From an uncultured Clostridia bacterium (lineage in GTDB: Bacteria; Bacillota; Clostridia; Lachnospirales; Lachnospiraceae), in contig CANADC010000019.1 of the NCBI GenBank assembly GCA_947347075.1, forward strand, positions 1 through 18,928: DNA of 18,928 nucleotides, written 5' to 3'. Positions 67 through 18,928 of the stretch are shown here, piece by piece. Numbering within the stretch: the first letter of the stretch is position 1; each line of letters begins with the position of its first letter. A model generated the notes under the pieces. The model saw nothing but the letters and a program-made list of their open reading frames with translations. It was not told where the DNA came from and did not search any database. The translations under genes were made by a program, and so were the position numbers.

Positions 67-1248
67 ATGAGTATATTTAGTAGAAATACAAAGGAAAGAC
101 AAGAATCTTTCAGTATGAGAAAGTTCTTTTTTGAGTGCAGATTTGATGATATCTTGAATACAAATAGGCTTTTAAGAGTTGCCAGATATGCCAGAGAATC
201 TACAAATCATCCAGATCAGTTGCAGGCGTTACATAATCAAGCGGAACGTTTAGATTCTTTGATCAAAGAGCATATTTATTTTACAATTGAAGAAAGGCAT
301 CGATATACAGAAAGGGGTATCTCAGGAAGAAGTATAGAAGATCGAGCAGCATTTCAGCTTATGTTGGAAGCAGCCAGACGAAGGGAGTTTGATTTAATTA
401 TTGTTCAAGATATTTGCAGATTTGCTAGGAATTTACGTGAATTATTAAATACAATTGAAGAGTTAAAAGAATATGATATTGGAGTTTTAATACTGGATGG
501 AAAGTATTGGACATTTAATATGGACGAAACAGATATTATTCGTTTGTCAGTTGATGGAGGATTGGCTCAGAGCGAGTCAATGAGGACGGCGAAAAGGGTT
601 AATAATGGTGTTCTTTCTTATAGAAAGAAAGGGCAATTAGTGGTATCAGGGTTATTTGGTTATATTTATGTAAAAGCTGTGGATAGGAAGAATAATACTT
701 TTCGGATTGATCCAGTTAATGGATTGACTGTTAAGACAATTTTTGATTTATATACCGATCCTGATTTAACGAAGCGTATGGGAACTCAAAAAATTGCAAA
801 TTATTTGATTGAACATAAGATGCTGACAGCAAGAGGAGATTTGGGTTGGAGTGCATCTAAGGTAAACCGAGTTCTTAGAAATGAAAAATATATGGGGTAT
901 CTGTTATATGGAAAGTTTAAAGTAGAAGATACCATGACAAAAAAGAAGATTGCAACCAAAATTAAACCAATCAGGGAGGATGTTTATGACAAAGAAGGAA
1001 ATTTGGTAGAACAGTGTAACTTAGTGAAAGGAAATTGGGAGTCAATTGTATCAGAGGAACAGTGGTGGCTTGCTTATCAGATCCGAAATGAAAAAGCAGT
1101 AGATTATATTTATTCAGTAAAAGGTTGTATGGTGAATGGTTTAAGAGAGTCTGTTGATATTATTGCGAATAAAAGTTTCTGTCAATGTGGATATTCGTTA
1201 AGCCCTCAGTATGTTCATACTGCAATATTGGAGGGCTATTACTGTTAA
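67..1248 (+). CDS. Large serine recombinase (resolvase/invertase catalytic domain plus recombinase domain), apparently 3'-truncated within the zinc-ribbon region. It has an unusual ~37-aa N-terminal extension.
   Basis: The catalytic-serine motif VARYARESTNHPDQ matches YxRVSTxxQ. DICRFARN matches the D-R-x-S-R-N region. The GISGRS...DIGVLILDG...VNNGVLSYRKKG block is typical of large serine recombinases. The product is 393 aa against a usual 450-550. It ends CQCGYSLSPQYVHTAILEGYYC, just as a CxxC zinc ribbon begins. The stop codon TAA is provided by the 36-bp repeat at 1243-1278. Confidence 0.85.
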   Translation: MSIFSRNTKERQESFSMRKFFFECRFDDILNTNRLLRVARYARESTNHPDQLQALHNQAERLDSLIKEHIYFTIEERHRYTERGISGRSIEDRAAFQLMLEAARRREFDLIIVQDICRFARNLRELLNTIEELKEYDIGVLILDGKYWTFNMDETDIIRLSVDGGLAQSESMRTAKRVNNGVLSYRKKGQLVVSGLFGYIYVKAVDRKNNTFRIDPVNGLTVKTIFDLYTDPDLTKRMGTQKIANYLIEHKMLTARGDLGWSASKVNRVLRNEKYMGYLLYGKFKVEDTMTKKKIATKIKPIREDVYDKEGNLVEQCNLVKGNWESIVSEEQWWLAYQIRNEKAVDYIYSVKGCMVNGLRESVDIIANKSFCQCGYSLSPQYVHTAILEGYYC

Positions 1249-1278
1249 GATTGCTGTAAAGTAAGAGAGAAAAAGAGG
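1243..1278. repeat. 36-bp direct repeat copy R1 (TGTTAAGATTGCTGTAAAGTAAGAGAGAAAAAGAGG) overlapping the last two codons and stop of the recombinase ORF
   Basis: 34 of 36 positions are identical to 2171-2206. Both copies begin TGT TAA and terminate the ORF they abut. Confidence 0.85.
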
Positions 1279-1305
1279 CTTGAAGAAATGATCAAGCCTT
1301 TTTTA
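1276..1305 (+). terminator. Rho-independent terminator after the recombinase gene
   Basis: Stem AGGCTTGA (1276-1283) pairs with TCAAGCCT (1292-1299) and is followed by a T6 run. Confidence 0.6.
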
Positions 1306-1373
1306 GTTTAGACGATCAGAATAAATTGCATTTTGGGTTATTTTTTGCTATAATTATATTAAAATCGTAGAGT

Positions 1374-1590
1374 TATTTAGTTTCTAAAAGGATATATAAA
1401 AAGTATTTGTTTTCATATAAGATTTTGTTGTTTTCTGTTGTAGACGCTACGATTATAAAGATAGTAATGTGTATATAAAATATGAAGGCTTATGTTTCAT
1501 GAGATAAATGGATATAGGAAAGTGAAACGTTACTTGTCTTATACTGGGAGATATTTATTACAATTTCGGTATATGGAAATGCGGAGGAAC
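1374..1590 (+). repeat. Leader repeat copy L1 (~217 bp; promoter plus upstream noncoding region of cassette 1), ~90% identical to 2223-2431
   Basis: Aligning the two regions by eye gives near-identity from TATTTAGTTT through AATTTCGGTATATGGAAAT. Each copy contains a -10-like TTATTACAAT or TTATTATAAT with an upstream TTGTCT or TTGCCT. Copy 1 has an extra ~90 bp (1591-1680) between the repeat and the RBS. Confidence 0.85.
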
Positions 1591-1685
1591 ATATTGTAAA
1601 TATTTTAATCTAAAGAGAAATAAGTTTTGAGATGATAAATTTAAGAATCATTGAAAAAAATTTGATAAGAAAGGGGGTTTATATA

Positions 1686-1925
1686 ATGGAAGAGCGATTG
1701 GATTGGAAACAAATAGTAGAAAAGTACCCGAACCAGTGGGTTGGTTTAACAGAAGTTGAGTATGAAGAAGATAATGATGCAACAATTAAAACTGCTATTG
1801 TGAAATATACAAATAAATCGAAAGATGAATTAACTTGGATGCAGTTTGAAACTTCTGGTGCATTGATAGGCATTTATACAACACCTGATAATGTATTTCA
1901 GTTAGGAGTACTGGGGGGTTTTTAA
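1686..1925 (+). CDS. Cassette gene A1: small (79 aa) protein of unknown function, translationally coupled to B1
   Basis: RBS AAGGGGG sits 8 nt before ATG 1686. The stop overlaps the B1 start (TAATG). It is ~50% identical to the 2451-2690 product, with shared EKYP-QWVGL, TIK/ESAIV-YT and YTTPD motifs. The supplied ORF starts at 1632, but the RBS supports 1686. Confidence 0.6.
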   Translation: MEERLDWKQIVEKYPNQWVGLTEVEYEEDNDATIKTAIVKYTNKSKDELTWMQFETSGALIGIYTTPDNVFQLGVLGGF

Positions 1926-2176
1926 TGAAACAGTTTACATTACATTTAGTTAAAGAAAAGTCAAGACCTATTGTAGAGCTAAAAAATTGGAATAATATTT
2001 ATGCATTGTTGGATACAGGGGCAATCTATCCTATTTGGACAGCAGATGAAAGGATTCTGATTCGATTTGGTGCAACATTGAAAGAGAAGGGTGTTTCGTT
2101 TGGAGGGTTTGGTGGTAAAACAAGTGGAAATAAAAAATCAACGATAGATTTATTCCTGAAGGGTTGTTCTTGTTAA
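1925..2176 (+). CDS. Cassette gene B1: retropepsin-like aspartic protease, 3'-truncated copy (83 aa)
   Basis: ALLDTGAIYPIW contains the hydrophobic-hydrophobic-D-T-G-A active-site signature of clan AA retropepsins. VSFGGFGGK resembles the Gly-rich flap (HIV PR has IGGIGGF). The homologous copy B2 continues ~70 aa further. B1 is cut short where repeat R2 supplies TGT TAA. Confidence 0.55.
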   Translation: MKQFTLHLVKEKSRPIVELKNWNNIYALLDTGAIYPIWTADERILIRFGATLKEKGVSFGGFGGKTSGNKKSTIDLFLKGCSC

Positions 2177-2206
2177 GATTGCTGTAAAATAAGAGAGAAA
2201 AAAAGG
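2171..2206. repeat. 36-bp direct repeat copy R2, overlapping the stop of B1
   Basis: TGTTAAGATTGCTGTAAAATAAGAGAGAAAAAAAGG matches 1243-1278 at 34 of 36 positions. Confidence 0.85.
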
Positions 2207-2222
2207 TTTGAAATTGCAAAGG

Positions 2223-2431
2223 TATTTAGTTTCCAATATATAAAAAGTATTTGTTTTCATATAAGATTTTGCTGTTTTCTGTTGTAGATGCTACGATTAT
2301 AAAGATAGTAATGTGTCTATAAAATATAAAGGCTTATGTTTCATTAGATGAATGGATATAGGAAAGTGAAATGTTACTTGCCTTATATTAGGAGATATTT
2401 ATTATAATTTCGGTATATGGAAATATAGAGG
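2223..2431 (+). repeat. Leader repeat copy L2 (promoter and leader of cassette 2)
   Basis: Near-identical to 1374-1590. It contains TTGCCT-N18/19-TATAAT and runs directly into RBS AAGGGAGGG. Confidence 0.85.
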
Positions 2432-2450
2432 AATAAAGGGAGGGTTTATA

Positions 2451-2690
2451 GTGTTAGAAGAAAGATTAACGTGGGAACAGATACAAGAAAAATATCCAGA
2501 TCAATGGGTAGGATTATTAGATGTAAAATATGAAGAAAATGATGGTATAACCATAGAATCAGCTATTGTAGAATATACGGGATTGTCGATGGATGCTTTA
2601 ACAAAGATGATGTTGCATGGGAAATGTGTAGCAAGATATACTACACCCGATCATGCATTTTCATTAGGAATGATAGAGGTGTTATCATGA
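2451..2690 (+). CDS. Cassette gene A2: paralogue of A1 (79 aa, GTG start)
   Basis: RBS AAGGGAGGG sits 8 nt upstream of GTG 2451. The product MLEERLTWEQIQEKYPDQWVGL aligns with A1 along its full length. The stop overlaps the B2 start (ATGA). Confidence 0.6.
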   Translation: MLEERLTWEQIQEKYPDQWVGLLDVKYEENDGITIESAIVEYTGLSMDALTKMMLHGKCVARYTTPDHAFSLGMIEVLS

Positions 2691-3146
2691 AACAGATAAC
2701 ATTAAATTTAGATAAAAAACAGCAAAGACCAATGGTATTATTACAATCGGGATTAACTGCTTTACTTGATACAGGTGCTTTTATGCCAGTATGGACAGGC
2801 GGAAAGGAATTGTTAGAAGAAGAATTTGGTGGAGAGTCACAAAATCGTAAGGTTTCATTTTCAGGGTTTGGTGGGAAATTATGGGGGGGATTTATATTCT
2901 GTAACATTGTCAGTTGGTGATTTGATATTTAATCATATGTCAATCATTGTAAGTAATAATTTGGGAATAACACCGTACCAGTTTATTATGAGTGCTACTA
3001 TGTTTGATCATTTAATTTATGAAGTTGATATGAAATGGCATAAACTTAATATAAAAATTCCAGATGATGAGAGTTTTGTTAGAAATTTAAGGTTAGTAGA
3101 TAAGAATGGAAAAATGTATATTTTATGTCATTCTGAACAAAAGTAG
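2687..3146 (+). pseudogene. Cassette gene B2: full-length retropepsin-like aspartic protease (~153 aa), interrupted by a +1 frameshift at the G7 run 2883-2889
   Basis: Frame 2687 reads MKQITL...ALLDTGAFMPVW...VSFSGFGGKLWGG, then stops. Frame 2826 continues DLYSVTLSVGDLIFNHMSIIVSNNLGITPYQF...ILCHSEQK to 3146. Removing one G from the G7 tract joins the two frames into one ORF. That ORF aligns with B1 as far as B1 extends (STIDLFL against SVGDLIF). Confidence 0.6.
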
Positions 3147-5605: not shown

Positions 5606-7525
5606 GTGGGAGCGAAGGATACTTACAATGCACAGAATATAACCGTGTTGGAAGGGTTAGAAGCGGTAAGAAAACGACCGGGAATGTATATTGGGAGTGT
5701 ATCGGTAAAGGGATTAAATCATCTGATTTATGAGATTGTAGATAATGCAGTGGATGAACATTTGAACGGATATTGTGATTCGATCTGGGTGACATTGGAG
5801 AAAGACGGTTCTGCTACAATTAAGGACAATGGACGTGGGGTTCCTGTAGATATGCATCCGAAAGGGCTTCCAGCGGCACGAATTGTCTATACGACACTTC
5901 ATGCAGGGGGAAAATTTGGAGACGGGGCTTATAAGACCAGCGGAGGACTGCATGGAGTGGGGTCTTCTGTGGTAAATGCTCTGTCGGCTTATCTGGATGT
6001 ACAGGTTTTTAAGGATGGCGGAATTCACCATGACCGCTATGAAAGAGGAGTTCCAGTTGTAGAATTAGTGGACGGGCTGCTGCCGATTATCGGAAAGACC
6101 AGACAGACGGGAACAGTGGTTAATTTTTTGCCGGATGAGGAGATTTTTGATAAGATTTATTTTAAAGCGGATGCAGTGAAAAGCAGGCTGCATGAAACCG
6201 CTTATTTGAATCCAGAATTGACGATTTATTTTGAAAACAGACGTCCTGGAGAGGAAGAAAAGGCGGTGTTTCATGAAAAAGAGGGAATTCGGGGGTTTGT
6301 GCGTGCCTTAAATGATGGGAAAGAGACGATACATGATGTAATTGCTTTTCATGGGGAGTCGGAACAGATTGTGGTGGACGTAGCATTTCAGTATATCAAT
6401 GATTTTCAGGAAAATATTTTGGGGTTCTGCAATAATATTTATACACAAGAAGGGGGAACCCATCTAACCGGGTTTAAGACCAGCTTTACAACGGTAATTA
6501 ATAATTATGCACGGGAACTGGGAATTTTAAAGGAGAGAGATGCAAATTTTACCGGGGCAGATGTTCGGAACGGTATGACAGCAGTGGTCTCTATCAAACA
6601 TCCCGATCCACGGTTTGAAGGGCAGACAAAGACCAAGTTGGATAATCCAGATGCAACAAAGGCAGCTTCGCAGATTACCAGTGAAGAACTGCAGCTATTT
6701 TTTGATAAAAATCTAGAAATTTTAAAAAATGTAATTGGATGTGCCGAGAAATCGGCAAAGATTCGAAAAGCGGAAGAGAAGGCAAAGACCAATATGCTGG
6801 TAAAACCGAAGTTTTCATTTGATTCCAATGGGAAATTGGCAAATTGTGAAAGCCGGGATGCTTCCAAGTGTGAGATTTTTATTGTGGAAGGGGATTCAGC
6901 AGGCGGTTCGGCAAAGATGGCAAGAAACCGGCTTTATCAGGCAATTCTGCCGATTCGGGGAAAGATATTGAATGTAGAAAAGGCAACGATGGATAAAGTA
7001 CTTGCCAATGCTGAGATTCAAACTATGATATTGGCATTTGGCTGTGGGTTTTCTGAGGGATATGGAAATGATTTTGATATTTCGAAACTGCGTTATCATA
7101 AGATTATTATTATGGCAGATGCCGATGTGGATGGGGCACATATCAGTACCCTGCTTTTAACCCTGTTTTATCGGTTTATGCCGGAGTTAATCTATGAGGG
7201 ACATGTCTATCTTGCTATGCCGCCGCTTTATAAAGCAGTACCTCAAAGGGGACCGGAAGAGTATCTCTATGATGATAAGGCATTGGAGAAGTATCGAAAA
7301 AGTCATAAAAATTTTATTTTGCAGCGATATAAAGGGTTAGGAGAGATGGATGCGGCACAGCTTTGGGAGACTACTTTAAATCCAGAGACTCGAATGTTAC
7401 GGCGGGTAGAGATTGAGGACGGAAAGATGGCATCGGATGTAACTTCTATTTTAATGGGAAGTGATGTGCCGCTTCGAAGAGAATTTATCTACAGACATGC
7501 CAAAGAAGCGGAAATCGATGCATAA
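5606..7525 (+). CDS. parE: Type IIA DNA topoisomerase ATPase (B) subunit of the GyrB/ParE family; probably topoisomerase IV ParE, given the partner A subunit
   Basis: It aligns collinearly with Bacillus subtilis GyrB and ParE: VLEGLEAVRKRPGMYIGS, LHAGGKFG, GLHGVG, EGDSAGGSAK, PLRGKILNVEKA, MTDADVDGAHI and QRYKGLGEM. GTG start with RBS AAAGGAAG. 639 aa. Confidence 0.6.
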   Translation: MGAKDTYNAQNITVLEGLEAVRKRPGMYIGSVSVKGLNHLIYEIVDNAVDEHLNGYCDSIWVTLEKDGSATIKDNGRGVPVDMHPKGLPAARIVYTTLHAGGKFGDGAYKTSGGLHGVGSSVVNALSAYLDVQVFKDGGIHHDRYERGVPVVELVDGLLPIIGKTRQTGTVVNFLPDEEIFDKIYFKADAVKSRLHETAYLNPELTIYFENRRPGEEEKAVFHEKEGIRGFVRALNDGKETIHDVIAFHGESEQIVVDVAFQYINDFQENILGFCNNIYTQEGGTHLTGFKTSFTTVINNYARELGILKERDANFTGADVRNGMTAVVSIKHPDPRFEGQTKTKLDNPDATKAASQITSEELQLFFDKNLEILKNVIGCAEKSAKIRKAEEKAKTNMLVKPKFSFDSNGKLANCESRDASKCEIFIVEGDSAGGSAKMARNRLYQAILPIRGKILNVEKATMDKVLANAEIQTMILAFGCGFSEGYGNDFDISKLRYHKIIIMADADVDGAHISTLLLTLFYRFMPELIYEGHVYLAMPPLYKAVPQRGPEEYLYDDKALEKYRKSHKNFILQRYKGLGEMDAAQLWETTLNPETRMLRRVEIEDGKMASDVTSILMGSDVPLRREFIYRHAKEAEIDA

Positions 7526-7590
7526 AAAAGGACGAAATCCGAGGATAAAAGGATTGATAGGATAGAAACAAAATGGAGAGGGAATGTGTG

Positions 7591-9834
7591 ATGGCAGAAC
7601 AAATTATTAGCACAGAGTTTGCAGATGTAATGCAGAAAAGTTTTGTAGATTATGCAATGAGTGTAATTACAGCTCGTGCCGTGCCGGATGTGCGGGACGG
7701 GTTAAAGCCGGTGCAGCGCCGGGTTTTATATGCAATGCATGAGTTGGGATTAAACTTTGATAAGCCGCATCGAAAATCGGCAAGAATTGTTGGTGATACC
7801 ATGGGAAAATATCATCCCCATGGGGACAGCTCGATTTATGAGGCACTGGTTGTAATGGAGCAGGACTTTAAAAAGGGAATGGCTTTGGTGGACGGGCATG
7901 GAAATTTTGGATCGATTGAGGGAGATTCTGCAGCCGCTATGCGTTATACCGAGGCACGATTAAAAAAATTTACGCAGGAGGTCTATCTTAAGGATTTAGA
8001 TAAAAATGTAATTGATTTTCTGCCCAATTTCGATGAAACGGAAAAGGAACCAGAAGTGCTTCCAGTTCGGGTCCCCAATATCTTGGTAAACGGAGCGGAC
8101 GGAATTGCAGTTGGAATGGTGACTTCGATTCCGCCTCACAATTTAGGAGAAGTGATTTCTGCAGTAGAGGCATTTATAGAAAATGACGAAATTAGTACAG
8201 AAGAATTGATGGAGTATATAAAAGGACCGGATTTTCCGACCGGAGGGATTGTAATTAATCAAAAGGAGTTAGCAGAAATCTATGAGACTGGCAGCGGAAA
8301 GATTAAAGTTCGCGGGAAATTGGAGTTTGAGCCGGCAAAAAAGAAAAATGAACGGGATAAATTAGTAATTACAGAGATTCCTTATACTTTAATTGGAAGT
8401 AATTTAGGAAAACTTCTTGCCGATATTGCGGGATTGGTAGAAGCGAAAAAAACAACAGATATTGTGGATATTTTAAATCAGAGTTCCAAAGAGGGAATTC
8501 GGATTGTATTGGAATTAAAAAAGAATACCGATATAGAAAAACTTTCGAACCTGCTCTATAAAAAGACAAAATTAGAGGATACGTTTGGAGTAAATATGCT
8601 GACAATTGTAAATGGAAAGCCGGAAAAATTGGGGCTGCGTGAAATTCTTCGTCATCATTTGGATTTTCAGATTGAATTGGCTTCCAGAAAATATCAGTAT
8701 TTATTAAAAAAAGAGCTGGAAAAAAAGGAGATAAAAGAAGGGCTGATACGTGCCTATGATATTTTAGATTTGCTGATTGAGATTATACGGGGAAGCCGTT
8801 CGGTAAAAGAGGTTAAGAAATGCTTGGTGTATGGAGATACCAGTAAAATTCAGTTTAAAAAACAGGCTTCTGAAAAGGCGGCTGCAAAGTTAAATTTTAC
8901 GGAAGCACAGGCTTCTGCTATTTTAGAACTCCGGCTGCAAAAACTGGTGGGATTGGAGATTCAGGCACTGGAGAAAGAGTATAAAGAGATTGTAAAAAAT
9001 ATTGCACAGTATACGGATATTTTGGAGAATCATACTTCTATGCTGAGAGTAATTCGAAAAGATTTGGAAGTGATTCGAAAAGAGTTTTCATTGGAACGAA
9101 AGACAGCCATTTTAAATGCACAGGCAGCGGTTTACGAGGAAGCACCGATTGCCGAACAGGAGATTGTCTTTACGATGGATCGGTTTGGTTATGCGAAAAC
9201 CATGGATCTTTCGACTTATGAGAGAAATGCAGAGACGGTGGAACATGAGAATAAGTATGTCTTTCGCTGTATGAATACCGATAAGATTTGTATTTTTACC
9301 GATACGGGCAGTATGCATCAGATTAAGATGTTAGATATTCCTTTTGGAAAATTAAGAGATAAGGGACAGCCGATTGATAATTTGGGAAATTATTCTAGTG
9401 CAGGAGAGGCGATTGTTGGAATTTTTACATTTTCTTCTATTCGAGAGAGGAAACTTTTTTTTGCTACGAAAAGCGGAATGGTAAAATTGGTAAACGCTTC
9501 TGAATTTGATGTAAATCGAAAGACTATTTTGGCAACGAAATTAGAAGAGCAGGACAGTGTAGTTTGTGTTTGCCCGGTTTTAGAGGAGGATAGAGAAGTG
9601 CTGCTTTATTCTCATGGAGGGTATTTTTTACGGTTTGCTTTGGAAGAGGTGCCGGAAAAGAGAAAAAGTGCATTGGGAGTACATGGGATGAAGATGGCAG
9701 AAAAGGATTATTTGGAGTGGGTGTCGCTGTTAAAAGGCGGACAGGAGTTTTTTGATTTTCGAAGTAAGGGGATAGCAGTGGCAAGAGTAAAAGAGGCAAA
9801 GCGGGATGAAAAAGGAACGAAGCTGCGGATATAG
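7591..9834 (+). CDS. parC: Type IIA DNA topoisomerase A subunit of the GyrA/ParC family; no GyrA box, so probably topoisomerase IV ParC
   Basis: The N-terminal breakage-reunion domain aligns with GyrA and ParC: AMSVITARAVPDVRDGLKPVQRRVLYAM, GKYHPHGD, DGHGNFGS, AAAMRYTEARL. The QRRGGKG GyrA box is absent where it would sit, and the sequence there reads TYERNAETVEHENKYV. The product is ~747 aa with a short C-terminal domain. The start is placed at ATG 7591 (MAEQIIS), with RBS GGAGAGGG. The supplied ORF starts at 7573. Confidence 0.6.
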   Translation: MAEQIISTEFADVMQKSFVDYAMSVITARAVPDVRDGLKPVQRRVLYAMHELGLNFDKPHRKSARIVGDTMGKYHPHGDSSIYEALVVMEQDFKKGMALVDGHGNFGSIEGDSAAAMRYTEARLKKFTQEVYLKDLDKNVIDFLPNFDETEKEPEVLPVRVPNILVNGADGIAVGMVTSIPPHNLGEVISAVEAFIENDEISTEELMEYIKGPDFPTGGIVINQKELAEIYETGSGKIKVRGKLEFEPAKKKNERDKLVITEIPYTLIGSNLGKLLADIAGLVEAKKTTDIVDILNQSSKEGIRIVLELKKNTDIEKLSNLLYKKTKLEDTFGVNMLTIVNGKPEKLGLREILRHHLDFQIELASRKYQYLLKKELEKKEIKEGLIRAYDILDLLIEIIRGSRSVKEVKKCLVYGDTSKIQFKKQASEKAAAKLNFTEAQASAILELRLQKLVGLEIQALEKEYKEIVKNIAQYTDILENHTSMLRVIRKDLEVIRKEFSLERKTAILNAQAAVYEEAPIAEQEIVFTMDRFGYAKTMDLSTYERNAETVEHENKYVFRCMNTDKICIFTDTGSMHQIKMLDIPFGKLRDKGQPIDNLGNYSSAGEAIVGIFTFSSIRERKLFFATKSGMVKLVNASEFDVNRKTILATKLEEQDSVVCVCPVLEEDREVLLYSHGGYFLRFALEEVPEKRKSALGVHGMKMAEKDYLEWVSLLKGGQEFFDFRSKGIAVARVKEAKRDEKGTKLRI

Positions 9835-12583: not shown

Positions 12584-12613
12584 ACCGTTTGTTTGATAAA
12601 AGCAGACGGTTTT
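12584..12613 (+). terminator. Weak terminator hairpin after the PLP-enzyme gene, overlapping the proC promoter
   Basis: ACCGTTTG (12584-12591) pairs with CAGACGGT (12603-12610), including one G-U pair, followed by TTTT. Confidence 0.35.
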
Positions 12614-12621
12614 GTTATAAT
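12593..12621 (+). promoter_or_regulatory. Sigma-A promoter of proC
   Basis: TTGATA (12593-12598), a 17-nt spacer, then TATAAT (12616-12621). Confidence 0.5.
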
Positions 12622-12668
12622 GGTTATAATTGGTGTAAAGGATCAAAAAGAAAGGAATCGGTGGACGG

Positions 12669-13479
12669 GATGAAGAAAATTGCATTGATTGGTATGGGAA
12701 ATATGGCTTCTGCTATGCTGAAGGGGATAGAGACTATGTTTAGTAAGGAGGAGATTATTTTTTCTAGAAAGGATGCAAAGAAGAGGGAACAGTTTTCGAA
12801 AGAGAATCATATAGAGGGAGCGGAGGATAATGTTTCTTGTGCAAAGGCGGCAAAGTATCTTATTTTGGCAGTAAAGCCGCAGTTTTTTCCAACTGTGTTA
12901 GAGGAGATAAAACCTGTAGTAAGGGAGGAACAGGTGGTGATATCGGTGGCTGCAGGAGTGGATCGGGAGATGATAAAAAGCGGACTTGGCGGGAAAGGGC
13001 GTGTGGTGCGTGCCATGCCGAATACACCGGCACTTTTGGGAGAGGGGATGACGGGGATTTGTTATCAGGAAGAGGAGTTTTCTTCGGAGGAGATACAGAC
13101 GATAGAGGCAATTTTTTCTTCTTTTGGGCGGGTAAAGAAGGTGGAAGAACATCTGATGAATACCGTGATTTGTGTGAGCGGGAGTGCTCCTGCTTATGTT
13201 TATTTGTTTATTGAAGCGTTGGCGGACAGTGGTGTGAAATATGGGCTTTCACGGGAAATGGCATATGAGATGGCGGCACAGACGGTATTGGGAGCGGCAA
13301 AAATGGTGCTGGAAACAAAGGAACATCCGGGGGTGTTAAAGGATCGGGTGTGCTCTCCGGGAGGAACGACCATTGCCGGAGTTGCCGCCTGTGAGGAGTA
13401 TGGACTTCGCAATGCGGTGTTGAAAGCGACAGATGCTTGTTATCAAAAGGCGGAACAGTTAGGAGGCAAAAAAAAATGA
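12669..13479 (+). CDS. proC: Pyrroline-5-carboxylate reductase
   Basis: IALIGMGNMASAM is the N-terminal NAD(P)-binding Gly motif. LAVKPQ, VVRAMPNTPALLGEG and CSPGGTTIAGV are ProC signatures. The start is taken at MKKIAL (ATG 12669). The supplied ORF starts at 12589. Confidence 0.85.
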
Positions 13480-14003
13480 AGCAGAAACGACTGAATCGGG
13501 AATTAATTTATCAGGGGAAAATTATTGGGGTGTATCAGGATACGATTGAATTGCCGGACGGAAATATAGTAAAGTATGATTTTATTAAGCACAATGGTGC
13601 AGCGGCTGTAGTTCCGGTGACACGGGAGGGAAAGATTTTAATGGTGCGGCAGGATCGCAATGCCGTTAATCGGGAGACTTTGGAGATTCCGGCAGGAAAG
13701 CGGGACGGGGAAGAAGATCCGATGGTGTGTGTGCGGCGGGAATTGGAGGAGGAGACAGGATATCAGTGCCAGAGACTGGAGCATTTGATTACATTGGACA
13801 GTTGGGTGGCGTTTTGTGACGAGCGGATTGATGTCTATGTAGCAATGGATTTGGTTCCCTCTAGACAGCATTTGGACGAAGATGAATTTATTGATGTGGA
13901 GGAGTGGGAGATCGAACAATTGGAAGAGATGATCTTTTCTGGAAAAATACGAGATGCGAAAACAATTGCCGGACTTATGTCTTATAAAGCGAAATATTTG
14001 TAA
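13476..14003 (+). CDS. nudF: Nudix hydrolase (ADP-ribose pyrophosphatase-like)
   Basis: The Nudix box GKRDGEEDPMVCVRRELEEETGY fits Gx5Ex7REUxEExGU. RBS AGGAGG precedes ATG 13476, which overlaps the proC stop (ATGA). A Nudix hydrolase, then spoIIM, then xerD is the gene order seen in Bacillus. Confidence 0.75.
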   Translation: MKQKRLNRELIYQGKIIGVYQDTIELPDGNIVKYDFIKHNGAAAVVPVTREGKILMVRQDRNAVNRETLEIPAGKRDGEEDPMVCVRRELEEETGYQCQRLEHLITLDSWVAFCDERIDVYVAMDLVPSRQHLDEDEFIDVEEWEIEQLEEMIFSGKIRDAKTIAGLMSYKAKYL

Positions 14004-14761: not shown

Positions 14762-15604
14762 ATGGAGAGGGAAATTGAGCAATTTTCTACATATCTATTA
14801 CAGGAAAGACATGCTTCTTCTAATACGGAAGCCTCTTATCGCAGGGATTTAAAGAAGTTAGAAAGTTATCTGAAGGAACAGGATATTGATAAAATAGAAG
14901 AAGTGACCGAGGTTTGGTTAAATTCTTATATACTTTACTTGGAAAGGGAACAGTGTGCCGCTTCTTCTATATCAAGAAATATTGCATCGATTAAGTCATT
15001 TTTTCAGTATTTGTGCCGAATTGAGGTACTTCGAAGAGATCCCTCTTGGGATCTGAAGGCACCAAAAGTAGAACGGAAGCTGCCTGAGATACTGACAATG
15101 GAGGAAGTAAACTGTCTGTTGGATCAGCCTTCTAGAGAACATTCGAAAGGGATTCGGGATCGGGCGATGCTCGAATTGTTATATGCGACTGGAATTCGGG
15201 TTTCGGAATTAATAGGACTGACGCTAGAAGATATCAATATGCAGTTAGGATTTTGTGTGCTGCGGCAGGGAGGAAGAGAGCGGATTGTATCTTTTCGGAA
15301 AAGAACCGCACAGGCTTTAGAGGAATATCAAAAAAAGGCTCGGGCGGAACTTTTAAAAGGAAAGGAATCACCATATTTTTTTGTAAATTGTTCGGGAAAT
15401 GCGATGAGCAGACAGGGATTTTGGAAGCTGATCAAGCAGTATGGAAACCAGGCAGGAATGAAAAAAGAAATTACTCCTTATACCCTGCGGCACTCTTTTG
15501 CGGCACATTTGCTGGAAAATGGGGCTGATATTCATGCTGTACAGCAGTTAATGGGACATTCGGATATACAGACAACACAGATGTATCGAAATGTTTGGGG
15601 ATAG
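14762..15604 (+). CDS. xerD: Tyrosine site-specific recombinase XerD (XerC/XerD family)
   Basis: The N-terminal SAM-like domain carries SSNTEASYRRDL. The catalytic domain carries ARDRAMLELLYATGIRVSEL, LRHSFAAHLLENGADIHAVQQLMGHSDIQTTQMY, the R...K...H-x-x-R...H and the nucleophilic Y. It ends only 5 residues after that Tyr, at 280 aa. Confidence 0.8.
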   Translation: MEREIEQFSTYLLQERHASSNTEASYRRDLKKLESYLKEQDIDKIEEVTEVWLNSYILYLEREQCAASSISRNIASIKSFFQYLCRIEVLRRDPSWDLKAPKVERKLPEILTMEEVNCLLDQPSREHSKGIRDRAMLELLYATGIRVSELIGLTLEDINMQLGFCVLRQGGRERIVSFRKRTAQALEEYQKKARAELLKGKESPYFFVNCSGNAMSRQGFWKLIKQYGNQAGMKKEITPYTLRHSFAAHLLENGADIHAVQQLMGHSDIQTTQMYRNVWG

Positions 15605-15612
15605 AGTTTTGC

Positions 15613-15642
15613 TTGCCGTAAGGAGGGAATGTGTGTTATAAT
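15613..15642 (+). promoter_or_regulatory. Promoter with extended -10 upstream of the large ORF
   Basis: TTGCCG (15613-15618), an 18-nt spacer, then TGT-TATAAT (15634-15642). RBS AGGTGG lies 9 nt before ATG 15714. Confidence 0.4.
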
Positions 15643-15713
15643 GTTTACATAATTGACAGACAGTACGAACGATATCATTTTATATCGGAAAATCGAAACA
15701 GGTGGTAGGGAAC

Positions 15714-18700
15714 ATGAGGACAAAGATCAGTAAACTGGCAAAAGGAATATTTGATAAAACAACTCCAGAACTCACAGTTTCCGTAGAGATAATTCAGATT
15801 CTGCTTCCAACCGGAGGAATGACATTGGGAAGTTTCTCCCTTGACAGTCAGAACGGAATTGATGCTCGTGGATTGCTTTATTCGGATAGTGCCTATCTGA
15901 TCTTAAAGGAGAGCAGCTTTATCGGAAAACATGCGGTAATTCATTATGAAGTGCAGGTAGAAGGAGTAAAACCGGGAAAACAGTTAAAGGGAGCGATTCA
16001 AATTGTCTCGGATGCAGGGGAGTTGGCACTTCCGTATGAGATAACCGTGGAAGAAAAGTATTTAGACAGCTCGATGGGAAAGATAAAAAACCTGTTTCAT
16101 TTTACGAATTTAGTAAAAAATCATTATGAAGAGGCACTGCATCTGTTTTTTTTAGCAGAGTTTTCCAGAGTGCTGTTATCGAATCTTCCTAGAGAACAGA
16201 CGATATATGAAGCATTATGTCATGGGATTTCTCCAAATACAGCGATGGAGGAATTCCTTGTTTGTGTCAATAAAAAAAGTCGTATTATGCTGCTGCTAGA
16301 ACAGGAAAGGCAGGAATATTTAGACTTTACAGAGACCATTGGAGATAGTTTTGTTATAAAAAAAGACACTTGGGGCTATATGGAGGTTGAGATCGAGGTA
16401 GATGGGGACTTTATCCGAATGGATCGCCGCCGGTTTACCACAGAAGAATTTGCCGGAAATAGTTTTGCCCTGTCTTATCAGATAGAAGAGAGCAGAGTAC
16501 ATGCCGGCTATAATTTTGGAAAGATTTATCTTGAGACGCCATATCAAAATTTGGAATATGAAATTTTGGTCTATCGTTATACAGAAAAGGAGAAGCATAC
16601 TTTGGAGCAGAAAAAGGGGCTCTTTCGGCTTTCCCAATTATACTTTGCTTTTCGGCTGCATAAGATTACAACGGATATCTGGTGCCGGGATTCTTTGGAG
16701 ACGATTACAAGAATGAAGCGGCTGCATTTAGAGGACAGCTTTATTCAGCTTTTGGAGGTTCAGGTATGGATCACGATGCGAAAGACCAAAGAGGCAGCGG
16801 GAAGATTGGCTGTACTTGCAGAGTGGATTGTTCCGAATCGGGAAGAAGAACCTTTTTTATACAGCTATTATTTATATGTCTATACTCTTTTAACAAGAGA
16901 TGCTCTATTTGCCAGAGATGCTGCTGCACAGGTAAAAGAGTTGTATGAGAAACATCCGAAAGATGACAGGATGCTCTGGGTAATCTTATATTTAGATGAA
17001 GAATGTGCCGTAAATAAAAGCCTTCGCTTGGCTCGAATTAAGGAACAATTTTTAATCGGCAGCAATAGTTCATTTTTATATTATGAAGCGTGTATGGTAA
17101 TGAATGAAATGCCGATACTTATCCGAGTATTGGATCTGTTTGAACTGCGTACAGCTTGGTGGGGAATTGTACATGGGATATTAAATGAAAGGGCTGCAGC
17201 ACAGATTGCAGAACAGGCATTGACAGAACAGCGGTATTATCCGCTGTTAATTCGGATTTTAAAAGAGATTTATCAAACGTATCAAAATCGAACGGCATTA
17301 GAAGCTTTGCTGTCGCAGTTAATTCGAAACTTTCGTATGGAACAGGAAAACTTTGCCTGGTTTCAGGAGGGAGTACAGCGGCAGATTACAATGACGGGAC
17401 TCTATGAAGCGTATATGAATACACTTCCTTATTATTTTTACGGGGAACTTCCTAAATCGATACAGCTTTATTTTATCTATGATCAGACATTGGATGAGGA
17501 ACGGAAGGAACTGCTCTACAGCAATATTATGATGTATGGATCGGAGAATCCGGCTATGCTGAGGAATTATCTGCCTGCGATAGAACAGTTTGCAGAAGAT
17601 CAGCTAAGAAAAGGGCATATCAGTAAGAGGCTTGCACGAATCTATCTGGGAGTGCTTTCTTCAGCAATGATTGATGAGACGGTGGCGGAAAAGCTGCCGG
17701 CAATACTTCTTACAAAGCGGTTGTGCTGCCAAAATCCCAAAGTATCCCATGTCATTATTCGGCATAAGGAGTTAGACTGTGAGTGGAAACTGCCGCTAGA
17801 GCAGGGGGAGGTCTATTTTCCTGTCTTTACTTCAGACTGTGCAGTGGTATTTGAAGATAGACAGGGAAGACGGTTTTGGGAGCATACCGAGTATCAGATT
17901 GAAGATTTGATAAAAGACAGAAAATTGATTCGGGAGTGTCAGCGGCTTTCGGAAGGGGATATCTGGGTATGGCTTTATCTGTGTGAACATGAGATGATCT
18001 ATTTGCCAGAGGAAAATGATAGAATGAAGCTGTTTAAACAGACGGCAGCTTTTTCTCTTTTAAAGAAATCCTATCGAAGTATGATAGTACAGCATATTTT
18101 GGACTATTATTTAGAACACTGCGAGGGAGAACAGTTAGAATCCTATTTGGATTCGATCTATAAGGAACAGTTAGAAGCAGGGGAGAGTATACAGGTGATA
18201 GAGCTGTTAATTGTTCGAACCATGTATGAAGATGCATGGGAAATGTTAGATAGCTGTAAAGTGGAGGGAATTTCGCCGAATCGGCTGCTGCGGCTTTGTA
18301 TTTATCAGATTGGGCAGCTGCAGATGACAGAAGATGAGATGCTGTTAAAGGCGTGTGCAAGTGTCTATCGAAAGGGAAAATATGAAGAAACCATTTTGGA
18401 ATATCTGGTACAGTATTATAATAATACAACCAAGGAGATGTGTCGTCTTTGGAAATCTGCAGTAGATTTTGAAATTGCAACGGCGGAATTAGAGGAACGG
18501 ATTTTGGTGCAGATTTTATTTACCGGGGCATTTGTTCCCGATATGGAAGAGATTTTTTCTTCTTATTATAGGGACGGCAGAAGCCAGATGGTAAAGGAGG
18601 CCTATCTTGCCTATCAGTCTTACCAGTATTTTGTACAGGATATGATAATTGATGAAAAGATTTTTCAATATTTGGCAAGAGAATACCAATTTCAAAAAAC

Positions 18701-18928
18701 ACTGCTGCCGATTAATCAGATGGCACTGCTTTCCTGGCTGGCAAAAAAAGAGAGAAATACCGAAGCAGAGAAAAAGATTGCAGAACAATTATTAGAAGTT
18801 CTTTCTTTAAACGGAAAATATTTTTCATTTTATCAAAGGCTTGCTGATCGGATTCTGCTGCCGTTTGCTCTGCGGGATAAGACGATATTGGAATATCGGA
18901 CAGAACCTGGCAGCAAGGTTTTTCTGCA
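15714..18928 (+). CDS. Large uncharacterised protein, more than 1071 aa in the window and continuing past the 3' end. It has an N-terminal ~120-aa beta-rich region followed by a long alpha-helical repeat-like body. It is not in the supplied ORF track.
   Basis: I translated this frame codon by codon from ATG 15714 to the window end and found no stop. The protein begins MRTKISKLAKGIFDKTTPELTVSVEII and reads at the window end as ...LRDKTILEYRTEPGSKVFL. No Walker A, HExxH, DTG, HD or other catalytic motif was recognised. The + strand ORFs 16501-16716 and 16682-16948 and the - strand ORFs 16320-16637, 16880-17065, 18034-18480, 18516-18788 and 18520-18702 lie inside it, out of frame or on the opposite strand. 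Confidence 0.75.
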   Translation, partial: MRTKISKLAKGIFDKTTPELTVSVEIIQILLPTGGMTLGSFSLDSQNGIDARGLLYSDSAYLILKESSFIGKHAVIHYEVQVEGVKPGKQLKGAIQIVSDAGELALPYEITVEEKYLDSSMGKIKNLFHFTNLVKNHYEEALHLFFLAEFSRVLLSNLPREQTIYEALCHGISPNTAMEEFLVCVNKKSRIMLLLEQERQEYLDFTETIGDSFVIKKDTWGYMEVEIEVDGDFIRMDRRRFTTEEFAGNSFALSYQIEESRVHAGYNFGKIYLETPYQNLEYEILVYRYTEKEKHTLEQKKGLFRLSQLYFAFRLHKITTDIWCRDSLETITRMKRLHLEDSFIQLLEVQVWITMRKTKEAAGRLAVLAEWIVPNREEEPFLYSYYLYVYTLLTRDALFARDAAAQVKELYEKHPKDDRMLWVILYLDEECAVNKSLRLARIKEQFLIGSNSSFLYYEACMVMNEMPILIRVLDLFELRTAWWGIVHGILNERAAAQIAEQALTEQRYYPLLIRILKEIYQTYQNRTALEALLSQLIRNFRMEQENFAWFQEGVQRQITMTGLYEAYMNTLPYYFYGELPKSIQLYFIYDQTLDEERKELLYSNIMMYGSENPAMLRNYLPAIEQFAEDQLRKGHISKRLARIYLGVLSSAMIDETVAEKLPAILLTKRLCCQNPKVSHVIIRHKELDCEWKLPLEQGEVYFPVFTSDCAVVFEDRQGRRFWEHTEYQIEDLIKDRKLIRECQRLSEGDIWVWLYLCEHEMIYLPEENDRMKLFKQTAAFSLLKKSYRSMIVQHILDYYLEHCEGEQLESYLDSIYKEQLEAGESIQVIELLIVRTMYEDAWEMLDSCKVEGISPNRLLRLCIYQIGQLQMTEDEMLLKACASVYRKGKYEETILEYLVQYYNNTTKEMCRLWKSAVDFEIATAELEERILVQILFTGAFVPDMEEIFSSYYRDGRSQMVKEAYLAYQSYQYFVQDMIIDEKIFQYLAREYQFQKTLLPINQMALLSWLAKKERNTEAEKKIAEQLLEVLSLNGKYFSFYQRLADRILLPFALRDKTILEYRTEPGSKVFL

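What the first reader, a model, noticed from the sequence alone, without database searches (positions are those of the whole stretch)
15714..18928. More than 1071-codon open reading frame missing from the ORF track, encoding a giant helical protein downstream of xerD
The + strand frame from ATG 15714 has no stop before the window end. It has a plausible promoter and RBS. It probably escaped the track because its stop lies beyond the window. The product has no recognisable enzymatic motif. It has an N-terminal beta-rich ~120 aa and then many amphipathic helical segments, which suggests a TPR-like or HEAT-like scaffold. Large uncharacterised proteins like this are often unannotated families.
Basis: seen in the sequence. 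Interest (0 to 1): 0.7.

Follow-up and report, generated by a model that had tools for sequence, protein, structure and literature searches.

The report
Catalogued giant scaffold protein (DUF5717), truncated
The long open frame is a real gene cut off by the window end; it encodes a 1183-residue, non-enzymatic scaffold protein of the already catalogued but functionally unstudied DUF5717 family of gut Lachnospiraceae, and its conserved partners are three downstream functions (a degenerate Hsp70-like protein, a TPR domain and a membrane-anchored coiled-coil protein), not xerD.

Summary
The frame from ATG 15714 to base 18928 has 1071 codons and no stop (chance about 1e-38). It is a single gene under strong purifying selection (dN/dS 0.08-0.12). 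A 99.7% identical contig shows it ends after 1183 codons, about 337 nt past the window end.

It is not an unannotated family. It matches Pfam DUF5717_N (E 5e-266) and DUF5717 (E 5e-63), and NCBI already names a protein of the same 90%-identity cluster "DUF5717 family protein". About 3600 cluster representatives exist. The 150 best are 1137-1272 aa, and every named source is Lachnospiraceae.

The AlphaFold model (pLDDT 87) shows two ASH/MSP/PapD-like beta-sandwiches, two TPR-like alpha-solenoids separated by a small beta domain, and a C-terminal beta domain. There are no TM helices, no enzyme-family or PDB sequence hits, and no global fold match.

The xerD/spoIIM neighbourhood is not conserved. 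What is conserved in seven further, distantly related loci is the downstream order: DUF5717, then DUF5716 (fold closest to atypical Hsp70s Ssz1/Sse1), then a TPR protein (fused here), then a ~395-aa two-TM coiled-coil protein (missing in one locus).

My best reading is a membrane-tethered scaffold/Hsp70-like complex. This is inferred and its cellular role is unknown. I found no literature on it. Interest is moderate to low.

The parts
15613..15642 (+). Promoter-like site: TTGCCG, 18 nt, then TGtTATAAT (extended -10).
   Evidence: (L004 9900-9929, offset +5713) and the sequence. This is a consensus match only. The region as a whole has no more such sites than shuffles (29 found against 25 +/- 5).
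15700..15705 (+). Shine-Dalgarno-like AGGTGG, 8 nt upstream of the ATG.
   Evidence: Read directly from the sequence.
15714..18928 (+). Partial CDS: codons 1-1071 of a 1183-codon DUF5717 family gene. The last 112 codons and the stop lie beyond the window.
   Evidence: Pfam DUF5717_N covers residues 1-869 (885 bits). DUF5717 covers residues 874-1071 and profile positions 1-198 of 306.
15771..16085 (+). Beta-sandwich 1 (residues 20-124), an ASH/MSP/PapD-like Ig fold.
16092..16265 (+). Five-helix linker (residues 127-184). It is the most conserved stretch of the family, with motifs NLFHFTNLV and EEFLxxxNKK.
   Evidence: F130, F150, F181, K187 and K188 are invariant.
16290..16577 (+). Beta-sandwich 2 (residues 193-288), forming a tandem with beta-sandwich 1.
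   Evidence: Foldseek hits to tandem-ASH ciliary proteins and to 2qsv span about 285-340 alignment columns.
16593..17708 (+). Alpha-solenoid 1 (residues 294-665, about 20 helices), TPR-like.
17712..17906 (+). Small beta domain 3 (residues 667-731) between the two solenoids.
17925..18842 (+). Alpha-solenoid 2 (residues 738-1043). It covers the end of Pfam DUF5717_N and the start of DUF5717.
   Evidence: Foldseek long-solenoid hits to Ski3, Naa15, Ctr9 and IFT-A.
18879..18928 (+). Start of beta domain 4 (residues 1056-1131 in the full protein), cut off by the window end. Two C-terminal helices (residues 1143-1179) also lie outside the window.

Best explanation
The frame is the first 1071 of 1183 codons of a DUF5717 family gene of an uncultured mouse- or human-gut Lachnospiraceae bacterium. 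The product is a soluble, cytoplasmic protein with no recognisable catalytic domain. Its order of parts is:
- a conserved amphipathic N-terminal helix;
- two ASH/MSP/PapD-like Ig domains joined by a highly conserved helical linker;
- a TPR-like superhelix;
- a small beta domain;
- a second TPR-like superhelix;
- a C-terminal beta domain and two helices.

It is the first gene of a conserved module. The second function is DUF5716, a strongly diverged Hsp70-like protein with an ASKHA nucleotide-binding-domain fold followed by a beta-sandwich. The third is a TPR domain, fused to DUF5716 in this lineage and a separate gene elsewhere. The fourth is a ~395-aa protein with long coiled coils on both sides of a two-helix membrane hairpin.

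Inferred mechanism: DUF5717 acts as a docking platform. Its Ig and TPR surfaces bind peptides or proteins. It assembles with the Hsp70-like/TPR protein, and the hairpin protein holds the complex at the inner face of the membrane. The Hsp70-like subunit would then either clamp a segment of a partner or client, or act as a nucleotide-dependent switch.

What is shown: family membership, architecture, absence of enzyme signatures, gene order and its conservation, the fusion/split of the TPR part, and purifying selection.

What is inferred: physical association, membrane tethering, and any chaperone-like or assembly role. The cellular process served is unknown.
For: Family and completeness:
- Pfam hits E 5e-266 and 5e-63.
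- A full-length 1183-aa twin, P0001, differs at 2 of 1071 residues.
- There are 3602, 2599 and 1354 representatives at E<=1e-3, 1e-10 and 1e-30; the 150 best are of uniform length.
- dN/dS is 0.08-0.12.

Architecture:
- AF2 model has mean pLDDT 87.1.
- Foldseek finds no global match, with TMq <=0.17.
- No hydrophobic segment passes the TM threshold.
- There are no PDB sequence, NCBIfam or PADLOC hits.

Module:
- The same gene order with short gaps (3-98 nt) occurs in the window's lineage (L002-L007) and in seven distant loci (L008-L014, 28-41% identity). Their flanks otherwise differ.
- The separate TPR gene is homologous to residues ~440-700 of the fused 713-aa protein, a gene-fusion link.

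- The TPR part hits Hop TPR1, Sti1, Cns1 and Sec72 among many other TPRs.
- Distant members keep an Hsp70-like first motif, for example VGIDFGNEYSQVSY.
- D10 and D177 are kept in at least 90% of sequences, and E155 and G248 are invariant.

Membrane protein:
- Two hydrophobic helices lie at 184-241 with basic flanks on both sides.
- It is conserved at 27-45% identity in six of the seven distant loci.
Against: - No experiment, co-fold or co-purification supports a physical complex. Gene order alone does not prove interaction.
- The fourth gene is missing at L010.
- The Hsp70 link is at fold level only. Pfam HSP70 is not hit at E<=1, and hhalign against DnaK gives 6.8% probability.
- The glycine-rich phosphate loops are lost in this lineage (DVLFFDFTEEHF), so ATP binding is doubtful.
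- The AF2 pTM is 0.58, so the relative placement of the domains is uncertain.
- The library of predicted structures (afdb50) could not be searched.
Confidence: 0.55

Rival explanations
1. The partner is a cytoskeletal element rather than a chaperone-like one. On this reading the ASKHA-fold DUF5716 protein polymerises or acts like FtsA, PilM or MamK. DUF5717 and the TPR domain would be its adaptors, and the hairpin coiled-coil protein its membrane anchor. The module would then be a lineage-specific cell-shape, division or envelope-assembly system.
For: - The canonical Hsp70 glycine loops are lost.
- The hairpin protein has a conserved basic N-terminal peptide, MGFWKKLFKRK. From established knowledge, this recalls the N-terminal tails of PilN and FtsN that bind PilM and FtsA.
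- The module sits in housekeeping chromosomal contexts.
Against: - The best fold matches are Hsp70-family proteins (Ssz1, Sse1, Ssb1), not actins.
- A beta-sandwich follows the nucleotide-binding-like domain, as in Hsp70 and Hsp110. Sse1 aligns over 332 residues.
- By eye, sequence motifs line up with DnaK in register.
Confidence: 0.2
2. It is a chromosome-dimer-resolution or sporulation accessory, functionally linked to the upstream xerD and spoIIM-like genes. This is the neighbourhood the first reader stressed.
For: - The gene lies 109 nt downstream of a XerD-like tyrosine recombinase and a small membrane protein, on the same strand.
- The same order is kept in the 77-78% identical relative L002.
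Against: - In all seven distant loci the upstream genes differ: aminotransferase; peptidoglycan-binding protein; rarA (immediately upstream in two loci, two genes away in a third); phosphodiesterase; ribulose-phosphate epimerase.
- The gene has its own promoter-like site.
- The 'spoIIM' call is below threshold: 15.2 bits against a cut-off of 26.9.
- Homologues occur in Butyrivibrio. From general knowledge, Butyrivibrio is not known as a spore former.
Confidence: 0.04
3. It is an anti-phage defence or conflict system, or cargo of a mobile element. The reasoning would be: a large protein with a repeat-sensor look, next to an ASKHA NTPase-like protein and a membrane effector.
For: - TPR sensor, NTPase and membrane protein together is a common layout of conflict systems (general knowledge).
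- A serine recombinase lies at the left end of the window.
- Recombinase and IS21 genes lie 8-10 kb downstream in L004.
- Four GenBank 'Bacteriophage sp.' records carry homologues.
Against: - None of the three proteins has a meaningful PADLOC match. Only the hairpin protein gives two weak, coiled-coil-like hits, E 0.01-0.02.
- There is no plasmid match.
- The one 'phage' record I inspected (H2, MT835486.1) is unverified and unannotated. It carries rarA, valS and a glycosyltransferase around the module, so it is a bacterial chromosome fragment. The other three were not inspected.
- The family has very uniform length and architecture, flanks are housekeeping genes, and purifying selection is strong. 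This is unlike patchy, fast-evolving defence islands.
Confidence: 0.06
4. It is an artefact: a pseudogene, two genes fused by a sequencing error, or a chance open frame.
For: None found. Pfam does split the family into two models, N and C.
Against: - The chance of such an open frame is about 1e-38.
- Independent assemblies encode an identical 1183-aa protein; the window and L001 differ from it at only 2-3 residues.
- All 72 aligned homologues and the 150 best representatives are full length and carry both Pfam parts in one chain.
- dN/dS is about 0.1.
Confidence: 0.01

Closest known systems
Pfam DUF5717_N (PF18984) plus DUF5717 (PF18983), annotated by NCBI as 'DUF5717 family protein'
   Same: The match covers the full length of both models. 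Length (~1180-1200 aa), domain order and Lachnospiraceae origin are the same. A same-cluster protein is already in NCBI nr under this name.
   Different: Nothing differs; it is a member. The family has no assigned function. I found no paper mentioning it in the searchable library.
Eukaryotic ASH-domain plus TPR/alpha-solenoid scaffold proteins (Hydin, FAP81, CFAP65/74/47, CEP192/Spd-2, TRAPPC8/9/10; Ctr9, Ski3, Naa15, APC5)
   Different: There is no global structural match (TMq <=0.17). Sequence identity is 4-15%. The domain order differs, the host is bacterial and the partners are unrelated. This is most likely convergent reuse of common folds, not homology of the whole protein.
Atypical Hsp70s (Ssz1 of the ribosome-associated complex; Sse1/Hsp110) and TPR co-chaperones of Hsp70/Hsp90 (Hop/Sti1, Cns1, Sec72). 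These compare with the downstream partner DUF5716, not with DUF5717 itself.
   Same: The partner has an ASKHA nucleotide-binding-domain fold followed by a beta-sandwich, then a TPR domain. Like Ssz1, its catalytic loops are degenerate.
PilM-PilN and FtsA-FtsN type pairs (a cytoplasmic ASKHA protein docked on the N-terminal tail of a coiled-coil membrane protein)
   Same: An ASKHA-fold protein is encoded next to a membrane-anchored coiled-coil protein that has a conserved short basic N-terminus.
   Different: The membrane protein here is a two-TM hairpin with both long domains in the cytoplasm, not a bitopic protein with an outside domain. No pilus or divisome genes are nearby. This is an analogy recalled from general knowledge, not a tested relationship.

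Membership tests
DUF5717 (Pfam PF18984 + PF18983) | Score above the gathering threshold for DUF5717_N. | tested here: met
   885.3 bits against a cut-off of 25. Residues 1-869 cover profile positions 1-872 of 875.
DUF5717 (Pfam PF18984 + PF18983) | Score above the gathering threshold for the C-terminal DUF5717 model, in the same polypeptide. | tested here: met
   213.5 bits against a cut-off of 25. Profile positions 1-198 of 306 are covered and the rest is cut off by the window end. The full-length twin P0001 carries both models.
DUF5717 (Pfam PF18984 + PF18983) | Length of about 1180-1200 aa as a single chain. | tested here: met
   1183 aa in P0001 and L001. The 150 best representatives are 1137-1272 aa.
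TPR / alpha-solenoid repeat scaffold | Stacked helix-turn-helix repeats forming a superhelix, judged at fold level. | tested here: met
TPR / alpha-solenoid repeat scaffold | The 34-residue TPR sequence motif, recognisable by Pfam TPR models. | tested here: not met
   No TPR, HEAT or other repeat family matches DUF5717 at E<=1. It is therefore 'TPR-like fold', not a sequence-defined TPR protein.
ASH / MSP / PapD-like Ig domain | Seven- to eight-stranded beta-sandwich superimposable on MSP or ASH domains. | tested here: met
ASH / MSP / PapD-like Ig domain | Ligand-binding features such as the FFAT-motif groove of VAP or donor-strand complementation of PapD. | not tested
   No residue-level structural alignment was available from the tools.
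Hsp70 family (for the downstream partner DUF5716) | Actin-like/ASKHA nucleotide-binding-domain fold. | tested here: met
Hsp70 family (for the downstream partner DUF5716) | Substrate-binding beta-sandwich following the nucleotide-binding domain. | tested here: inconclusive
   The model has a beta-sandwich at residues 299-418. Sse1 aligns over 332 residues, more than a nucleotide-binding domain alone. The aligned ranges were not printed.
Hsp70 family (for the downstream partner DUF5716) | Sequence match to the Pfam HSP70 model or to DnaK. | tested here: not met
   No HSP70 hit at E<=1. hhalign probability is 6.8%, covering only residues 6-84.
Hsp70 family (for the downstream partner DUF5716) | Intact phosphate-binding loops (DxGTT and DxGGGT) and ATPase activity. 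| tested here: not met
   The window lineage has GYDIQKDK and DVLFFDFTEEHF in their place. Distant members keep GIDFGNE. Activity itself cannot be tested with these tools.
Known anti-phage defence systems (PADLOC) | Match of any module protein to a defence-system model. | tested here: not met
   DUF5717 and DUF5716 have no hits. The hairpin protein has only weak, coiled-coil-type hits, E 0.01-0.02.
spoIIM-xerD-linked (sporulation or segregation) operon | Conserved adjacency to xerD/spoIIM across the family. | tested here: not met
   The adjacency occurs only in the window's own lineage. It is absent from L008-L014.

The most novel reading that the evidence does not exclude
DUF5717, the degenerate Hsp70-like DUF5716, its TPR domain and the hairpin coiled-coil protein would together form a previously undescribed, Lachnospiraceae-wide, membrane-tethered machine. 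It would be either a specialised Hsp70-derived assembly or quality-control platform, or a lineage-specific cytoskeletal or envelope organiser. It would be built on a giant scaffold of ASH/MSP and TPR modules, a combination otherwise known from eukaryotic ciliary, centrosomal and trafficking scaffolds.
Probability: 0.35. Interest if true: 0.6.

Novelty: already known. Interest (0 to 1): 0.33.

Why it matters
As a sequence this is ordinary. The family is in Pfam, and public annotation already labels this protein.

Its value is as a pointer. DUF5717 is a very large, strongly conserved protein of uniform architecture. It appears restricted to Lachnospiraceae, a dominant and health-relevant family of gut bacteria. 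I found no published function for it.

The analysis gives it a concrete, testable context:
- It is a non-enzymatic ASH/TPR scaffold.
- It is always encoded with a highly diverged Hsp70-like protein and a TPR domain.
- It is usually also encoded with a membrane hairpin coiled-coil protein.

If these form a complex, it would be a new use of the Hsp70 fold in bacteria. It could also be a lineage marker with a role in cell organisation. It does not open or close a long-standing question.

Tried and rejected
Searches that found nothing useful:
- Sequence searches for a known function. NCBIfam gave none. PDB gave none by single sequence or by a 72-sequence profile. PADLOC gave none.
- Literature. 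'DUF5717' gave 0 papers, 'DUF5716' gave one irrelevant paper, and the Pfam accessions gave 0. Two keyword searches for Hsp70-like/TPR operons in Clostridia or Lachnospiraceae found nothing relevant.
- Rfam and tRNA scans of the window found nothing.
- The hairpin protein gave only coiled-coil noise in a PDB profile search, with no Pfam or NCBIfam family.

- The afdb50 fold library was not on the machine. Whole-protein matches among predicted structures therefore could not be checked.

Ideas rejected:
- A link to xerD/spoIIM, because synteny is not conserved.
- Phage origin. Of four 'Bacteriophage sp.' hits, the one inspected is a bacterial chromosome fragment.
- Plasmid carriage, because there was no hit.
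- A fusion artefact or pseudogene.
Full report
**Observation**

Translating window 15714-18928 on the + strand gives 1071 codons without a stop. With the window's base composition (39% G+C), a random frame would stay open that long with probability about 1e-38. GC by codon position is 0.50/0.31/0.40, which is coding-like.

The ORF lister omits any ORF that runs off the end of the source (and its tool description). This explains why the frame was 'missing from the ORF track'.

AGGTGG sits 8 nt upstream of the ATG. A TTGCCG-18-TGtTATAAT site lies at 15613-15642. The promoter scan as a whole was not enriched over shuffled sequence, so this site is only plausible.

Homologues align from residue 1 with a conserved MxxKIxKLAxGIF, which supports ATG 15714 as the start.

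**Completeness and reality of the gene**

- A public protein, P0001, is 1183 aa long and differs from the window's product at 2 of 1071 positions.
- Contig L001 comes from an uncultured Lachnospiraceae MAG of the mouse gut catalogue. It is 99.67% identical to the window over 4251 nt, and there the frame ends after 1183 codons.
- The window therefore lacks the last 112 codons. The stop would lie 337 nt past the window end.
- dN/dS against relatives of 77-78% identity is 0.083 and 0.117.
- All 72 aligned homologues are full length.
- A profile search of 1.84 billion representatives found 3602 members at E<=1e-3 and 1354 at E<=1e-30. The 150 best are 1137-1272 aa, and nearly all match in one stretch along the profile.

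**What it is**

Pfam assigns residues 1-869 to DUF5717_N (E 5e-266) and residues 874-1071 to the first two thirds of DUF5717 (E 5e-63). NCBI nr already names a protein of the same 90%-identity cluster 'DUF5717 family protein [Lachnospiraceae bacterium]'. So this is a catalogued family, not an unannotated one.

Every named source I saw is Lachnospiraceae, including Butyrivibrio and Anaerosacchariphilus.

No function is attached to it:
- NCBIfam, PADLOC and PDB sequence searches are empty.
- The searchable literature holds no paper naming DUF5717 or its accessions.

**Structure**

An AlphaFold2 model built on the 72-sequence alignment has mean pLDDT 87.1 and pTM 0.58. Its parts are:

| Residues | Element |
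|---|---|
| 2-9 | N-terminal helix |
| 20-124 | Beta-sandwich 1 |
| 127-184 | Five-helix linker |
| 193-288 | Beta-sandwich 2 |
| 294-665 | Alpha-solenoid 1 |
| 667-731 | Small beta domain 3 |
| 738-1043 | Alpha-solenoid 2 |
| 1056-1131 | Beta domain 4 |
| 1143-1179 | Two C-terminal helices |

- The solenoids match TPR-type scaffolds: Ctr9 12.4, APC5 11.7, and MalT, PlcR and Rap 10.4.

Foldseek agrees. Local hits are to tandem-ASH ciliary proteins and to Ski3, Naa15, Ctr9 and IFT-A, with TM-score normalised to the query never above 0.17.

No segment reaches a transmembrane-like hydrophobicity. Conservation is spread evenly over all domains. It peaks in the linker (NLFHFTNLV; EEFLxxxNKK). The invariant residues are mostly aromatic or glycine, which suggests structural rather than catalytic roles.

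**Neighbourhood**

Upstream in the window are:
- a XerD-like tyrosine recombinase (14762-15604; 323 bits against the TIGR02225 cut-off of 329.6, and above the generic tyrosine-recombinase cut-off);
- a 191-aa membrane protein that only weakly resembles SpoIIM (E 0.022, below threshold).

This arrangement is kept in the close relative L002. In seven distant loci (28-41% identity) the upstream genes are all different.

What is conserved lies downstream, outside the window.
- In the 48-kb contig L004, DUF5717 is followed after 10 nt by a 713-aa DUF5716_C protein. After a further 7 nt comes a 396-aa protein with no family, and then nadE.
- In L008, L009, L011, L012, L013 and L014 the order is DUF5717, DUF5716_C (354-444 aa), a 256-283-aa TPR protein, then a 379-406-aa protein.
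- L010 has the first three only.
- The separate TPR gene is homologous to residues ~440-700 of the fused 713-aa protein. This is a gene fusion/fission link between those two functions.

**The partners**

*DUF5716.* The model has pLDDT 86.7 and pTM 0.72. It shows an alpha/beta domain (1-297), a beta-sandwich (299-418) and a TPR domain (464-710).

- ParM is close behind at 13.3.
- The TPR part matches many TPRs, among them the Hsp70/Hsp90 co-chaperone type (Hop TPR1, Sti1, Cns1, Sec72).

By eye the conserved motifs line up with DnaK:
- IPCLIAQTEEGWVIGKEA with TPSIIAYTQDGETLVGQPA
- SEQESAVCYAL with NEPTAAALAYG
- DVLFFDFTEEHF with IAVYDLGGGTFD
- VYLIGEGF with VILVGGQTR

Distant members keep GIDFGNEYSQVSY at the first motif.

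At sequence level the link is not demonstrable, however. There is no Pfam HSP70 hit and hhalign probability is 6.8%. The glycine loops are lost in this lineage. I therefore call it 'Hsp70-like fold, degenerate', not a member of Hsp70.

*The last protein.* It has two adjacent hydrophobic helices (184-241) with basic flanks on both sides and an acidic six-residue loop. By the positive-inside rule, both long coiled-coil regions face the cytoplasm. It also has a conserved basic N-terminus, MGFWKKLFKRK. Its 60 retrieved homologues carry no Pfam family, and the few that carry a source name are 'hypothetical protein' of Lachnospiraceae.

**Mechanism (inferred)**

The most economical reading is that DUF5717 is a docking scaffold. 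It would assemble with the Hsp70-like/TPR protein and be held at the inner face of the membrane by the hairpin protein.

The supporting facts are conserved order, short intergenic gaps, the fusion event, complementary 'adaptor-type' folds and the lack of any catalytic signature. Physical association, the role of nucleotide and the cellular process remain unknown.

I give about 0.55 to this general statement. The identity of the gene itself is near certain.

The main rival (0.2) is that the ASKHA partner is actin-like, which would make the module cytoskeletal. A xerD/sporulation link, a defence system and an artefact are each unlikely for the reasons given under the rivals.

**Comparison and novelty**

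- Membership in DUF5717 is met on every criterion.
- Resemblance to eukaryotic ASH+TPR scaffolds is limited to shared, common folds without global similarity.
- Resemblance of the partner to atypical Hsp70s is at fold level only.
- The gene and family are already catalogued, so the finding as stated (a giant unannotated family) is not new.
- The operon-level picture is, as far as my searches show, undescribed. It gives a testable hypothesis for an abundant gut-bacterial family.
- Interest: 0.33.

Noticed in passing
It has no NCBIfam hit. It has about three hydrophobic segments. The label is unproven.
   Followed up: partly
window 14762-15604 (+): The XerD-like tyrosine recombinase (280 aa) scores 323.1 bits against the TIGR02225 XerD cut-off of 329.6, just below the equivalog threshold. 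It does pass the generic tyrosine-recombinase model NF001399.
   Followed up: partly
window 5606-7525 and 7573-9834 (+): This is a type IIA topoisomerase B/A subunit pair. Both subunits score below the equivalog cut-offs for gyrB/gyrA and for parE/parC. The A subunit (753 aa) shows only one GyrA C-terminal blade in Pfam. It is probably the topoisomerase IV pair or a second gyrase-like pair.
   Followed up: no
window 67-3146: A large serine recombinase (393 aa, Resolvase plus Recombinase domains, CcrA/XisF-like) sits at the left end. About 2 kb holding only short ORFs of 83-106 aa follows it. One of these has a weak CBM9-like hit. This may be the edge or a remnant of an integrated element.
   Followed up: no
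L004 13563-15704 versus L008 13586-15742, L009, L010-L014: The DUF5716 Hsp70-like protein and the TPR protein are one 713-aa polypeptide in the window's lineage. They are two adjacent genes in all seven distant loci. In L008 a single tblastn alignment runs through both genes in the same frame.
   Followed up: yes
L014 (MT835486.1, 1-17871): A GenBank 'UNVERIFIED: Bacteriophage sp.' record from human faeces carries the whole module. Around it are a polysaccharide deacetylase, rarA/mgsA, a valS gene split into two ORFs, and a glycosyltransferase. It looks like a bacterial chromosome fragment mislabelled as phage. Three further such records (MT835988, MT837190, MT835719) also hit.
   Followed up: partly
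L010 4026-5345, L012 6676-8004, L014 1711-3051; valS at L010 18808-, L011 15225-17876, L014 12287-14920: In several distant loci rarA (MgsA AAA+) lies just upstream of the module. It is immediately upstream in L010 and L012 (overlapping by 4 nt in L012) and two genes upstream in L014. valS lies downstream. This suggests an older rarA-module-valS synteny from which the window's lineage has departed.
   Followed up: partly
L004 15712-16902 and orthologues: The hairpin membrane protein has a conserved, very basic N-terminus (MGFWKKLFKRK, MKFWKRIFKK, MGLFGWLKKRK and similar). DUF5717 has a conserved amphipathic N-terminal helix (KISKLAKGIF). Both look like docking peptides or membrane-binding helices.
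   Followed up: no
window 12589-13479 and 13437-14003 (+): The longest ORFs of proC (P5C reductase) and the NUDIX hydrolase overlap by 43 nt. Public gene calls use later starts (269 aa and 175 aa), so the true starts are probably internal.
   Followed up: no
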